A DNA stretch of 64,000 nt from the NCBI GenBank assembly GCA_011364985.1, contig RDOC01000003.1, positions 32,001 to 96,000 of the forward strand. The letters are read 5' to 3'. The DNA is from Candidatus Thorarchaeota archaeon (GTDB taxonomy: Archaea > Asgardarchaeota > Thorarchaeia > Thorarchaeales > Thorarchaeaceae). This document shows positions 3,425 to 44,352 of the stretch, piece by piece; the stretch's first letter is position 1, and every line of letters begins with the position of its first letter. Under the pieces are notes generated by a model. The model saw nothing but the letters and a program-made list of their open reading frames with translations, did no database searches and was not told where the DNA came from. A program made the position numbers and the translations under genes.

Positions 3425-4528
3425 CTAGACTGTCTGTGAGCCCTGAGCAGAAGTAGGGACAATCCTAGGCTGGAATGAACCTCTGAACAGAAAAGAGAGA
3501 AACTTGCTCTGCGTGAGAACGCGACTTGCCAGTGGAACAGATATGGCTATTCCAATGACAAATCTGGCTGGCCATAGATTGTACATCAGAATTGGATCTG
3601 TGATAGGAAATCCAACAAGAAGAGCCACCAGCGGAATCAGATAGAAGGTAACTGGATGAATCTCATACACTTCTTGCGAGTTGGCACCCAATGCCATCAA
3701 TAATCTTCGAGTATCGCTGAATCGAAGAAGCAGGCTAGAGGCTGAGAAAACCAAGATAGTACCAATGGTTCCATTCAAGATATACAGCCACGCATTTACT
3801 CCGTAGTTGTCAACTGCAATATCGGTGAATCCGTTTAGATTCGAAGTGAAGATCAAAAAGACGACTAGTATCACCAGCATTGCTGTTGTCCTAGGGACTG
3901 ACGTTGCCCCCCATGGCTTCAGTTCCCTTACCCTGCGCATCTCATTGCCTAGAAGAACAAATGTTGCAGCAAGAAAGGCACTACTGAGTCGCCATGGCAC
4001 CAAATTAGGCGCAAACAATGATTGAATAAGTACTGCAACGACAGGAAAAGTCACTACCAGTAGCCATCGAGCTGCCATAGGGGCATCCTTCAGGACACGG
4101 TCAGATATGACAAAGAGGACCATTCCAAGAAACAGGACTGGCAAGAACCAGAGATGCATGGCTGAGTTGGGAGGGCCGTTTCCGTAGAGAAACCAGAACA
4201 GGAGCTGGTCTGGAGTTAAGTATGTGTCCACAGTGGATGCCAACGGTACGAACATGGTCATGATGATGACATAAAGTAGAAAATAGGGAATGAGATACTG
4301 CCTAGCTCGAGAGCTGATGAAAGCACCTAGGTTCTTCTGGTGTTTCGTGTTGTTATATGTGAGTCCTGCAAGAATGAAGAACAATGGTATTGTGAAGCTG
4401 CTAAGATGGATGGTAACAGGATTAACAATAGGAATAATAGAATGGACAAGAATGACGAACATGACACCGAGACCCTTGGCCGCCTCGATCCAATGGAGCC
4501 TTGTGATATCATCTGCCCTATTAGACAT
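3425..4528 (-). CDS. acyltransferase 3 family membrane protein
   Basis: RLHWIEAAKG...VILVH, FTIPLFFILAG, LWFL motifs and multiple TM segments. Confidence 0.85.
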   Translation of the reverse strand: MSNRADDITRLHWIEAAKGLGVMFVILVHSIIPIVNPVTIHLSSFTIPLFFILAGLTYNNTKHQKNLGAFISSRARQYLIPYFLLYVIIMTMFVPLASTVDTYLTPDQLLFWFLYGNGPPNSAMHLWFLPVLFLGMVLFVISDRVLKDAPMAARWLLVVTFPVVAVLIQSLFAPNLVPWRLSSAFLAATFVLLGNEMRRVRELKPWGATSVPRTTAMLVILVVFLIFTSNLNGFTDIAVDNYGVNAWLYILNGTIGTILVFSASSLLLRFSDTRRLLMALGANSQEVYEIHPVTFYLIPLVALLVGFPITDPILMYNLWPARFVIGIAISVPLASRVLTQSKFLSFLFRGSFQPRIVPTSAQGSQTV

Positions 4529-4641
4529 TCTTCGGTCTCATCCTGTTGTCATGTCGCCGCTAGCTTTCAACGAAAATTCGCAGGTTATTTTCACCTCTTG
4601 GCAAACTTTTTTAACACTGTCTATGGCGGAATGCATTGACT

Positions 4642-4807
4642 GCGCTCGTTGTCTAAAGGACATCGGATTCTGAAGTCCTGACAAAGGGGCTATGATGGAT
4701 CCCTGCCACGGATCCGGCAATCACATTCACTATGAATGTGATCGGGAACCGGGAACTGCGTTCAGTTTCGAATGTGGTCGGGAATTCGAGTCCCGGCGAG
4801 CGCACCA
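4642..4807 (+). tRNA. tRNA-Gly(GCC) with three BHB introns (4656-4685, 4719-4748, 4754-4784)
   Basis: After removing the introns: GCGCTCG TT GTCT AGGGGCTA TGAT G GATCC CTGCCAC GGATC CGGC CCGGG TTCGAGT CCCGG CGAGCGC A CCA, a 75-nt cloverleaf. Each intron has a 4-bp central helix, 3-nt bulges and an internal stem. Confidence 0.92.
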
Positions 4808-8856: not shown

Positions 8857-9857
8857 TTGTCAGACTCTTGGGTTTCTAAAGAGGGCAATGTGCTGCTGAT
8901 GACTGTGACAACAATGAATTCCATTAGGAAAGCAAGCCAAACAATAAGGGAACATGTGAAACATACTCCCCTGATTAGATCCGACTATCTTAGCAAGCTC
9001 TGCCGGTGTAGTTCATATCTAAAGCTTGAGAATCAGCAGCATACAAACTCCTTCAAAATTCGAGGCGCACTGAATAAGATGTCGCAGCTGACTTCCGAAC
9101 AGAAGGAGGCTGGTGTTGTCACAGCATCTTCTGGCAATCATGCCCAAGCCGTGGCTCTGGCTGCCCAGATACTCGGTATTCATGTCATCATTGTTGTTCC
9201 AGAACAGGTATCAAAGGCCAAACTTGAAAAAATGCGGGAGTACAGCGTCGAAGTCGTACTTGGTGATGGTTTTGACGAAGTGGAGCCAAAAGCCCGTTCA
9301 ATTGCAGGTGAGCAAGGAAAGTCATACATAAGTCCGTACAATGACTACGAAGTGATCTCTGGCCAAGGTACCATGGGATTGAAGTACTTCAGAACCTTGA
9401 TAGTTTCGACACCATCATCGTGCCAGTTGGTGAAGGAGGACTCATTGTAGGCATAGCAGTCGCCGCAAAAAGCCTCAAACAGGACTGTGAAGTGATTGGG
9501 GTTCAGACAAAGGCCTCCTCTAAAATGTACGAGTCTTGGAAAAAAGGATCCTTTGTTCATGTTGAAGAAACTGACACGCTGGCAGAGGCGTTTCTGGGTG
9601 GTGTTGAAGATGGCTCTGTGACGCTTGATTTGACACTGAAATATGTTGACAAAATGCTTCTTGTTATGGAGAACACGCTGAGAGATGCAATTCGGATTCT
9701 ATGGACAGAGGAGAAACAAGTGGTAGAAGGTGCTGGTGCAACATCCATAGGCCCGCTTCTTGAGAATCCAGAATACTTCAAAGGAAAAGCCATAGTATCG
9801 ATTGTGAGTAGTGGAAATATAGAAAAGACGCTCTTTGAGAACATCACTAAACAATAG
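8857..9857 (+). pseudogene. ilvA: threonine/serine dehydratase, frameshifted
   Basis: LKLENQQHTNSFKIRG and SSGNHA in ORF1; VPVGEGGL in ORF2. A 1-nt deletion at ~9380 (GGA TT GAA GTA) joins the two frames. Confidence 0.8.
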
Positions 9858-10015: not shown

Positions 10016-12019
10016 CTAATTCTCAACCCAAGCAAACTTTCGCTGCAGAGTCCTAGGATATACTCTTTTCCAATCATAGTCCACTTTCTTACACCACGTA
10101 TAGACAACCTTTGGATGAATGTAAGACTTCAGTGAAGTTCCCAAGTTCCACGTCCTACTGGCTTTCGCCAGTGCAAAATCGGTTTCGATCCTGCTCTTAG
10201 CAATCTCAGCCTTTCTTACCTGCTCCTTCATCCGTTCGAGGGCCTTCTCAGCTTGTGCAATTCGTTCAGTAGATTTCTCCTTGAAATCTGCAAGTACTTG
10301 CTGCTGCTTCTCAAGAGATGTTTTGCTCTTGGTGTAACGATCCCTTGTGCGAGAAAGACCCGTTTCTGCATCATCTAGGCGTGCTCGAGTGCGCTCAATA
10401 CTTGTCTGGGCTTCTTCCAGTCGTTCTTTCTTCGTGGTCTTCGCCTTCCTCTTGCTTGTTCTGGTCCTGCGCTTTCGTTCTCGAGCGTTGTCCCACGTGG
10501 TCTTTGCACGGTTTCTCTTCTCACGCCAAGAGAGGACGACTTGCCAGTTCTGATCCATGGTTTTCTTCTTTTTCGCAAGTGAGCTTTGTTTCTTTTCCTG
10601 CATCTGTTTCTCTTTCTTTTTTCTGGCTCGTAGTTTCTTCTTCTGTTCTTGCAGCTTTGCCTTGGTCTTTGTAATTCGCTGCTCAGCTTTCTTGATTCGG
10701 TCAACGTATCTATCAGCGGTACGACTCCAGCCCTTGGGAGCCTGCTTTGTGTGATTCATTATACGAGCTACCTCAAGATTTGCTCTCTTGACAGCAGCTT
10801 TCTTGATGAAATCAGGGTCTGCTTGCTTAGTCTTGCTCTTACGGAGCTCATCTTGCATTGTAAGGGTGGCATGAAAAGTTCTGAACACTTTTGCTGTGAG
10901 ATTCTTGTCCACTTTGCCAAGGAATCTGTTAACATGAGAGCTATTGATTCTAGGGAATAACTGTGCAGGTTTCTTAGGGTCTATCTTTGTCTTTCCTTTG
11001 CGAGACTTGAAGGATGCAATACGCTCCTCGGTTCTCTCATAAAGCTCTCTGAATACATTATAGACATCAAGCGGCATTTCCAGCTCCTTATGCCAAGGAA
11101 CGCTATCCTTGCCCAAGAAATTGAACACGACTGAATTCTTCTTGAAAGTTAGATGCTCAGCTCGAAGGGTTGTTGCTCCGACGGTGTCAGCCTCGTCTGG
11201 ATCTTTCTCATCACCCACTCTGAGACTCAGAGCATCTATGAGGTAGCATGCCGCAGCAACCATTCTTGTTTTGTAATCCTCAGAATGAATTCCCTCCATG
11301 ATGTGCGCCCGTATAGCATCGATCTTTTTGGCAACCTTCATTGCCTTGTCATATTTCTCTGCCTCACGTTCTTGCTTTATGGGGCTGCTATCATGTAGCC
11401 ACAGGTACTTGACCTTTCCAGTGAGTTCATCAACCCACTTGGCAATCCACATTGAATCAGAAGCCCAAACAATCTCATCCCAATCACCTTCAGGAACGGG
11501 CGCATCAGGACTCAGATTCAACGTTATGTCTTTATGCGTCACGCCCTTCTTCCAGCGGCCTCTCAGGGGGTGCTCGCCTCGCCCCATAAATATCCCTGAT
11601 GGTTCTGTCTGATAGCTTCCAAGCTCCATACGTTCCCCATCAACTATGGCATAGCCGTACTCCTCCTTTAGACGCTCGCGCTCAACCTTTCGAGCCTCTC
11701 TTTGTGCTTTCTTCTCTTCCTTCGTCATTGCCTCCTTCGTAGCACGCTCCTGCTCAACGAATTCAATGATTTCTGAGAAGTCGATTTCATCAACGGACAA
11801 TGGGGAAGTTGTCTCCAGGGCTTTAGAGAAGTCAGTCATGAAGTTCTCACAAAAAATGGGGTCCTCGACGTATGGAGTTCCTAGCTTTCGCACCCAAGCA
11901 ATTGCCATCTCTTCTTGGAGCCGAGTTAATGCTTTCTTCTGACCATGAACAGTAATATGAAACCCCTTGGATTCGGGTGGTTCTAGGACAATGATGCCGC
12001 GGTGTACAAGAGACTCCAT
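10016..12019 (-). CDS. DNA topoisomerase IB, eukaryote-like, with long coiled-coil linker
   Basis: IFMGRGEHPLRG, LRVGDEK, DTVGATTLR, FLGKDS, AKVFRT, NH and GTSLKSY (catalytic Tyr) motifs. Confidence 0.93.
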   Translation of the reverse strand: MESLVHRGIIVLEPPESKGFHITVHGQKKALTRLQEEMAIAWVRKLGTPYVEDPIFCENFMTDFSKALETTSPLSVDEIDFSEIIEFVEQERATKEAMTKEEKKAQREARKVERERLKEEYGYAIVDGERMELGSYQTEPSGIFMGRGEHPLRGRWKKGVTHKDITLNLSPDAPVPEGDWDEIVWASDSMWIAKWVDELTGKVKYLWLHDSSPIKQEREAEKYDKAMKVAKKIDAIRAHIMEGIHSEDYKTRMVAAACYLIDALSLRVGDEKDPDEADTVGATTLRAEHLTFKKNSVVFNFLGKDSVPWHKELEMPLDVYNVFRELYERTEERIASFKSRKGKTKIDPKKPAQLFPRINSSHVNRFLGKVDKNLTAKVFRTFHATLTMQDELRKSKTKQADPDFIKKAAVKRANLEVARIMNHTKQAPKGWSRTADRYVDRIKKAEQRITKTKAKLQEQKKKLRARKKKEKQMQEKKQSSLAKKKKTMDQNWQVVLSWREKRNRAKTTWDNARERKRRTRTSKRKAKTTKKERLEEAQTSIERTRARLDDAETGLSRTRDRYTKSKTSLEKQQQVLADFKEKSTERIAQAEKALERMKEQVRKAEIAKSRIETDFALAKASRTWNLGTSLKSYIHPKVVYTWCKKVDYDWKRVYPRTLQRKFAWVEN

Positions 12020-40493: not shown

Positions 40494-40602
40494 GGGCCCG
40501 TTGCCTAGTATGGACCAGATGGAATTTTTCCCGTCTGGGTACAAATAGGGCGCTAGCCTTCTAAGTTAGAGGTCGCCGGTTCAAATCCGGCCGGGCCCGC
40601 CA
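40494..40602 (+). tRNA. tRNA-Arg(TCT) with 31-nt D-loop intron (40514-40544)
   Basis: Anticodon arm CTAGC CTTCTAA GTTAG; strict BHB with CCTA/TAGG, GTAT/GTAC, and bulges GGA and AAA. Confidence 0.93.
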
Positions 40603-43420: not shown

Positions 43421-43554
43421 GCCTCGGTGGCCAAGTGGTTATGGCGTCTGCCTCGTAAGCAGTAGATTAGTCTCTCTGCTGAGCCAGCAGGAAAACGTTG
43501 ATTGATTACCAATCTCCGGTCGAATCGCGGGTTCGAATCCCGCCCGGGGCTCCA
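43421..43554 (+). tRNA. tRNA-Thr(CGT) with ~58-nt insertion (one or two introns) in the variable region
   Basis: Acceptor GCCTCGG/CCGGGGC-T-CCA, anticodon loop CTCGTAA, T-arm GCGGG TTCGAAT CCCGC; splice sites unresolved. Confidence 0.85.
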
Positions 43555-44234: not shown

Positions 44235-44352
44235 GCGGAGGTTGCCAAGCCTGGCCAAAGGCGCTAGGTTGAGGGCCTAGATTCTGTGGATTTTCATCAC
44301 TGAAAGGCTATCTCGTAGGAGTTCGCGAGTTCAAATCTCGCCCTCCGCACCA
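44235..44352 (+). tRNA. tRNA-Leu(GAG) with 30-nt intron (44281-44310) at 43/44
   Basis: Anticodon arm CTAGG TTGAGGG CCTAG, long variable arm after splicing, central helix GCCT/AGGC. Confidence 0.92.

What the first reader, a model, noticed from the sequence alone, without database searches (positions are those of the whole stretch)
4642..4807. tRNA-Gly(GCC) with three introns, a 5-nt exon and predicted ordered splicing
Seen: introns of 30, 30 and 31 nt at about positions 14/15, 48/49 and 53/54; exon 3 is only CCGGG (4749-4753). The central helix of intron 3 (CCCG/CGGG) is complete only after intron 2 is removed, since beforehand it is ACCG/CGGG. Known: multi-intron tRNAs are described mainly in Thermoproteales. 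Standard annotation could easily miss this gene.
Basis: partly seen in the sequence, partly recalled or inferred. Interest (0 to 1): 0.7.

Follow-up and report, generated by a model that had tools for sequence, protein, structure and literature searches.

The report
Three-intron glycine tRNA, Thorarchaeota
This is a real glycine transfer-RNA gene of an Asgard archaeon that must have three short introns cut out before it works; such genes are a known kind, and the proposed fixed cutting order looks like a preference rather than a rule.

Summary
Confirmed: window 4642-4807 (+) is tRNA-Gly(GCC) of a Thorarchaeota (Asgard) archaeon, with introns at 14/15, 48/49 and 53/54 (30, 30, 31 nt) and a 5-nt third exon. 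Intronless orthologues (73/75 identical to the spliced product) fix the boundaries. ARAGORN and Rfam miss it, and it is the only Gly(GCC) gene found in the assembly. The motifs of introns 2 and 3 share bases, so they are cut one at a time; folding favours 2 before 3 in 19/19 alleles. The order is probably not obligatory: the same outer-pair mismatch (A.G) persists in this genome's single tRNA-Asp intron and an outer mismatch sits in 13/17 intron-1 alleles. 'Mainly Thermoproteales' is out of date: heavily interrupted Asgard tRNAs and nested, ordered splicing are published, and this genome holds a four-intron tRNA-Tyr. Extras: introns 2 and 3 look like copies of each other, always occur together (14 genomes, 7 genera), never with the 37/38 intron, and do not follow the neighbouring gene's tree, which hints at exchange of intron blocks. 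The scan found this same gene earlier in another genome (e1-5585957). No RNA evidence.

The parts
4607..4614 (+). Likely archaeal TATA box (T-run then AA), about 30 nt upstream of the mature 5' end, preceded by a purine-rich BRE-like stretch
   Evidence: TTTAA lies 31-33 nt upstream in 48 of 79 distinct upstream sequences of orthologues; function inferred
4642..4655 (+). Exon 1 (tRNA positions 1-14)
4656..4685 (+). Intron 1 at 14/15, 30 nt; central helix TGTC/GACA (4 of 4), folds independently of the others
   Evidence: present or absent independently of the 3' introns in relatives
4686..4718 (+). Exon 2 (positions 15-48) with the GCC anticodon
4719..4748 (+). Intron 2 at 48/49, 30 nt; HBh' motif: central TCCG/CGGG, 10-bp inner stem, no outer helix
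4749..4753 (+). Exon 3, 5 nt (positions 49-53, the 5' strand of the T stem)
   Evidence: invariant in 19 alleles
4754..4784 (+). Intron 3 at 53/54, 31 nt; 3-pair central helix while intron 2 is present, full hBHBh' after its removal; probable paralogue of intron 2 (23/31 identical here)
4785..4807 (+). Exon 4 (positions 54-76) with encoded CCA
3425..4528 (-). Neighbouring acyltransferase gene (PF01757); marks the syntenic site in many Thorarchaeia; context only

Best explanation
A functional single-copy tRNA-Gly(GCC) gene of a Thorarchaeota archaeon. The precursor is cut at three BHB-type motifs by the host's (alpha-beta)2 splicing endonuclease and joined by RtcB. Intron 1 is removed independently. 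The motifs of introns 2 and 3 overlap (the 3' bulge of intron 2 is part of the central helix of intron 3), so they are cut one after the other. Intron 2 usually goes first, and its removal turns intron 3 into a full motif. The reverse order is probably slower but possible, and leads to the same product. Shown: structure, boundaries, orthologue states, presence of the enzymes. Inferred: transcription, splicing and order.
For: Spliced product is a canonical tRNA. Intronless orthologues are 73/75 identical. No other Gly(GCC) gene in the assembly (74% complete). Compensatory changes in all three stems. EndA alpha subunit closest to PDB 3p1z/3ajv (E 2e-46; from my own knowledge the Aeropyrum enzyme), aligned through the N-terminal specific loop with its lysine and the catalytic Tyr/His/Lys, plus a second paralogue that lacks the His motif, and RtcB. 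Folding at 37 C: intron-3 motif probability 0.0004-0.003 with intron 2 present and 0.17-0.30 after its removal; intron-2 motif 0.02 with intron 3 present and 0.003-0.004 without; intron 2 is the cheaper motif in 19/19 alleles. Against a strict order: outer-pair mismatches in 13/17 intron-1 alleles and in the tRNA-Asp intron of this genome and two relatives.
Against: No RNA shows expression or splicing. Nearest-neighbour folding ignores enzyme binding and co-transcriptional folding. At 15 C the two motifs tie in the full precursor (3.8 vs 3.8 kcal/mol), and one allele is a near tie at 37 C. That the Asp intron is spliced is itself inferred from its being the only Asp gene found.
Confidence: 0.72

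Rival explanations
1. Strictly obligatory order: intron 3 cannot be cut at all until intron 2 is removed and exons 2 and 3 are ligated.
For: Central helix 3 of 4 before and 4 of 4 after in 19/19 alleles, always with a purine-purine mismatch; the outer helix grows from 1-2 to 2-3 pairs; 60-700-fold gain in motif probability. Nested, ordered archaeal introns are described (Sugahara 2007 and Tocchini-Valentini 2009, as cited in PMC3978253 and PMC3728597).
Against: The same A.G outer mismatch stands in the single-intron tRNA-Asp of this genome, whose boundary is fixed by an intronless orthologue; 13/17 intron-1 alleles have the outer pair broken.
Confidence: 0.17
2. No meaningful order: once bound, EndA cuts introns 2 and 3 at similar rates in either sequence.
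For: Both motifs are minor conformers of the full precursor (0.02 and 0.003); they tie at 15 C; the mismatch is tolerated elsewhere.
Against: All 19 alleles rank intron 2 first at 37 C; intron 3 gains most from removal of intron 2.
Confidence: 0.07
3. Introns 2 and 3 are cut out together with exon 3 as one 66-nt piece (5' arm of intron 2 pairs with 3' arm of intron 3), giving a 70-nt product that lacks one T-stem strand; or the locus is a dead gene.
For: A formally complete 'skip' motif can be written in this genome: central 4 pairs, inner 9, outer 2.
Against: It costs 10-24 kcal/mol in every allele (P about 3e-11 here); its inner helix decays to 2-7 pairs in most alleles while the true stems covary; exons are conserved across 16 genera; no other Gly(GCC) gene was found.
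Confidence: 0.04

Closest known systems
[quoted passage not shown]
   Same: Several non-canonical BHB introns per gene, in the D-loop and T-arm, missed by standard annotation; two EndA paralogues; up to five insertions per gene reported.
   Different: Those papers centre on Freyarchaeia, Jordiarchaeia and Atabeyarchaeia. The preprint's main text has no hit for 'Thorarchae', splicing order, nesting or tRNA-Gly. It found almost no copying between tRNA types, whereas here two adjacent introns of one gene look paralogous.
Multiple-intron tRNAs of Thermoproteales with nested, ordered splicing (Sugahara 2007, 2008; Tocchini-Valentini 2009; primary papers not held, read through PMC3978253, PMC3728597, PMC4033280)
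   Same: Up to three introns; a later intron completes its BHB only after another is removed; (alpha-beta)2 EndA with the specific loop; similar introns at different sites (Fujishima 2010).
   Different: Other phylum. Here the dependence rests on one outer pair that this lineage often leaves mismatched, so it is probably a preference. Whether positions 48/49 and 53/54 or a 5-nt exon occur in those genes I could not check.
Multi-intron tRNAs of the red alga Cyanidioschyzon merolae (Soma 2013, PMC3728597)
   Same: Three-intron tRNAs whose order of removal follows the free energy of each motif, shown by RT-PCR.
   Different: Eukaryote; its motifs fold independently, whereas introns 2 and 3 here overlap.

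Membership tests
Archaeal multi-intron tRNA gene (BHB introns) | Removing the inserts gives a canonical tRNA | tested here: met
   75-nt tRNA-Gly(gcc), ARAGORN; intronless orthologues 73/75 identical
Archaeal multi-intron tRNA gene (BHB introns) | Each junction forms a strict or relaxed BHB with cuts after the second bulge base | tested here: met
   Intron 1 central 4/4; intron 2 HBh'; intron 3 hBHBh' after intron 2; stems covary
Archaeal multi-intron tRNA gene (BHB introns) | Host encodes a broad-specificity EndA and an RNA ligase | tested here: met
   Two EndA paralogues, the alpha with specific loop and catalytic triad by alignment; RtcB. Activity not tested
Archaeal multi-intron tRNA gene (BHB introns) | Precursor is transcribed and spliced in the cell | not testable with these tools
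   No RNA holder listed
Nested introns with obligatory order (Thermoproteales type) | The later intron's motif is incomplete until the earlier intron is removed | tested here: met
   3/4 to 4/4 central pairs in 19/19 alleles
Nested introns with obligatory order (Thermoproteales type) | The incomplete motif cannot be cleaved | tested here: inconclusive
   The same mismatch occurs in introns that must be cut, but folding disfavours this motif; needs an assay
Split or permuted tRNA | Exons on separate transcripts or in swapped order | tested here: not met
   All four exons are colinear in 166 nt

The most novel reading that the evidence does not exclude
Introns 2 and 3 arose when one mini-intron was copied into a near-identical target site 5 nt away in the same gene, and the two-intron block has since been exchanged between Thorarchaeia lineages by recombination in the conserved exons, replacing or being replaced by the 37/38-intron allele. 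That would be a traceable route for both arrival and spread of Asgard tRNA introns, which the current census calls open.
Probability: 0.35. Interest if true: 0.5.

Novelty: new member of a known kind. Interest (0 to 1): 0.27.

Why it matters
The gene itself is ordinary for an intron-rich Asgard genome. Its use is practical: annotation tools drop it, so the genome looks as if it lacks tRNA-Gly(GCC); and it is a short (166-nt) substrate for testing what an Asgard EndA cuts, which has not been measured according to the 2026 preprint. The allele series (none, 14/15, 37/38, 48/49+53/54, combinations) across 72 genomes is a ready data set for asking how tRNA introns arrive and spread.

Tried and rejected
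ARAGORN and Rfam on the unspliced gene: no call. Sequencing runs: no RNA holder listed; two RNA runs of the same study laid nothing, which is no evidence either way. Sigma-70 promoter and terminator scan: nothing, and not suited to archaea. Primary papers Sugahara 2007 and Tocchini-Valentini 2009 are not held. Exon skipping was rejected on energy and covariation. Mobile-element delivery of the intron pair was considered because two loci hold a partial second copy, but the genes between the copies have no Pfam match and no integrase was seen, so it is not supported. The careful tree did not finish; quick trees were used, with long-branch, near-duplicate and two-allele rows left out of the AU test. 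I give no P value for co-occurrence of introns, because kin are not independent.

Full report
1. Observation. Joining 4642-4655, 4686-4718, 4749-4753 and 4785-4807 gives 75 nt that ARAGORN calls tRNA-Gly(gcc), with a normal cloverleaf and encoded CCA. The introns are 30, 30 and 31 nt at positions 14/15, 48/49 and 53/54. ARAGORN and Rfam do not report the unspliced gene. The assembly (74% complete) has intronless Gly(TCC) and Gly(CCC) genes but no other Gly(GCC) gene that I could find. Contigs of a public marine-sediment run tile the gene at 99+% identity; a related allele in the same run differs at 10 places plus one insertion, all inside introns 2 and 3, two pairs of them compensatory.

2. 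Host and orthologues. Exon 2 matches records named Ca. Thorarchaeota, so the host is an Asgard archaeon. The gene was found in 72 of 86 genomes of the family, often beside the same acyltransferase gene. States: 15 genes have no intron, several of them 73/75 identical to the spliced product, which fixes the boundaries without any use of the BHB motif. 36 have an intron at 37/38. 14, in 7 genera, have the 48/49 + 53/54 pair; 7 of these, in 4 genera, also have 14/15, as here. Four have other states and three are cut off or degenerate. Neither intron of the pair was seen alone in a complete gene, in these genomes or in the metagenome contigs, and the pair never occurs with 37/38. The 14/15 intron combines freely with both.

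3. Motifs. Intron 1 has a full central helix and forms whatever the state of the others (P 0.5-0.6). Intron 2 is HBh': four central pairs, a 10-bp inner stem, no outer helix. Intron 3 has three central pairs while intron 2 is present and a full hBHBh' afterwards; this holds in all 19 distinct alleles. Stems of all three introns show compensatory or wobble-keeping changes. The genome has an EndA alpha subunit whose best solved relatives are 3p1z and 3ajv (E 2e-46), aligned through the N-terminal specific loop and the catalytic Tyr, His and Lys, a second paralogue without the His motif, and RtcB. PMC5829648 reports this (alpha-beta)2 type with the L1 loop for Asgard archaea and links the loop to cleavage of relaxed motifs.

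4. Order. The sequence shows that the 3' bulge of intron 2 (4747-4749) overlaps the central helix of intron 3 (4748-4751), so the two are cut one at a time. Constrained folding gives the intron-3 motif a probability of 0.0004-0.003 with intron 2 present and 0.17-0.30 after its removal; the intron-2 motif has 0.02 with intron 3 present and 0.003-0.004 without it; intron 2 is the cheaper motif in 19/19 alleles at 37 C, though one allele nearly ties and the full precursor ties at 15 C. So 2-then-3 is favoured. In 13 of 17 intron-1 alleles the same outermost central pair is mismatched, with nothing to repair it. In this genome the only tRNA-Asp gene found has one intron with ACGG/CCGG, the same A.G mismatch; an intronless orthologue fixes its boundary and two relatives keep the mismatch. 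The enzyme therefore very probably cuts such motifs (inference). Removing intron 3 first would not block intron 2, whose central helix does not change. I read this as a preferred, not an obligatory, order. A 'skip' motif that would drop exon 3 can be drawn, but it costs 10-24 kcal/mol in every allele.

5. Origin of the pair. Introns 2 and 3 are 23/31 identical here and 26/31 in the best cross-allele pair. With the BHB-dictated ends removed, their similarity ranks 3rd of 171 intron pairs in this genome and exceeds stem-preserving shuffles (P about 0.0005, uncorrected). Their targets are similar too (TCCGGC and CCCGGG). Common origin is likely, but other intron pairs of the genome are as similar, so both may be members of a wider family of 30-nt introns. 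Only 5 nt separate the two introns, and only 10-11 nt separate 37/38 from 48/49, so recombination would move these as blocks; this alone can explain the perfect linkage and the exclusion (inference). Both 3' alleles occur within four genera. On the tree of the neighbouring acyltransferase the pair-bearing rows are not one clade (3-5 changes; AU test rejects). Two contigs carry one allele whole and the other as a fragment. Lateral exchange fits this, but so does one old gain followed by repeated loss, and the neighbouring gene is not a species tree. Intron 3 is more conserved (0.84) than intron 2 (0.68) or intron 1 (0.57), which I cannot explain.

6. What is known. Multi-intron tRNAs are not confined to Thermoproteales: 92-95% of tRNA genes in three complete Asgard genomes carry introns and over half carry several (PMC11291895); a 2026 census reports up to five per gene, systematic misses by annotation, two EndA paralogues, and no general route of arrival (bioRxiv 10.64898/2026.10.13.758758). 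Nested introns in which the last motif forms only after others are removed are described for archaea. In this genome a rough census gives 42 tRNA genes, 27 with an insertion and 12 with two or more, among them a four-intron tRNA-Tyr with a 3-nt exon. The scan also met this gene in another genome and reached a similar reading (e1-5585957); that is not independent support.

7. Verdict. Real, correctly parsed, a new member of a known kind. Interest 0.27. What remains open and testable is whether the order is enforced, and whether the intron pair was copied within the gene and then moved between lineages as a block.

Noticed in passing
window 40494-40602 (+): tRNA-Arg(TCT) with a 31-nt D-loop BHB intron (40514-40544); missed by ARAGORN, found only in part by Rfam.
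   Followed up: partly
window 43421-43554 (+): tRNA-Thr(CGT) with about 57 extra nt after the anticodon arm; perhaps two introns, but my BHB search gave no clean parse.
   Followed up: partly
window 44235-44352 (+): tRNA-Leu(GAG) with a 30-nt intron (44281-44310) at the start of the variable arm, four central pairs.
   Followed up: partly
genome G000 C15:169402-169598 (+): tRNA-Tyr with four introns and a 3-nt exon; the last intron has 2 central pairs before and 3 after removal of its neighbour, a stronger case of order dependence than this finding.
   Followed up: partly
genome G000 C15:184471-184578 (+); L156-L172: tRNA-Asp(GTC) D-loop intron with an A.G mismatch at the outer central pair, kept in G020 and G094; relatives show present/absent states like the Gly gene.
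   Followed up: yes
L063 963-1098 (+) and 4400-4520 (-); same arrangement in L123 (G035:C22): One contig holds a whole Gly(GCC) gene with the 48/49+53/54 pair and, 3.4 kb away and inverted at the syntenic site, a 3'-truncated copy with 14/15+37/38; a 1021-aa ORF without Pfam match lies between.
   Followed up: partly
L067 9074-9211 and 10750-10875 (+): Whole gene with 14/15+37/38 followed 1.5 kb later by a 5'-truncated copy with the 48/49+53/54 pair at the contig end; one 491-aa ORF without Pfam match between.
   Followed up: partly
L011 / L034 (G013): Gly(GCC) gene breaks off 13 nt into intron 2 and runs into a long ORF on the other strand; the 3' part was not found. Truncation or misassembly.
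   Followed up: partly
L097 (G081), L106 (G091), L063, L067: A 10-12-nt copy of the tRNA 5' end of another acceptor-stem allele stands shortly upstream of the working 5' end; possibly a scar of gene replacement.
   Followed up: no
window 8857-9857 (+): Threonine dehydratase-like gene split over two frames near 9375-9385; looks like a 1-nt deletion, not an intron. Assembly error or pseudogene.
   Followed up: partly
window 10016-12019 (-): Eukaryote-like type IB DNA topoisomerase (PF01028, PF02919, PF14370).
   Followed up: no
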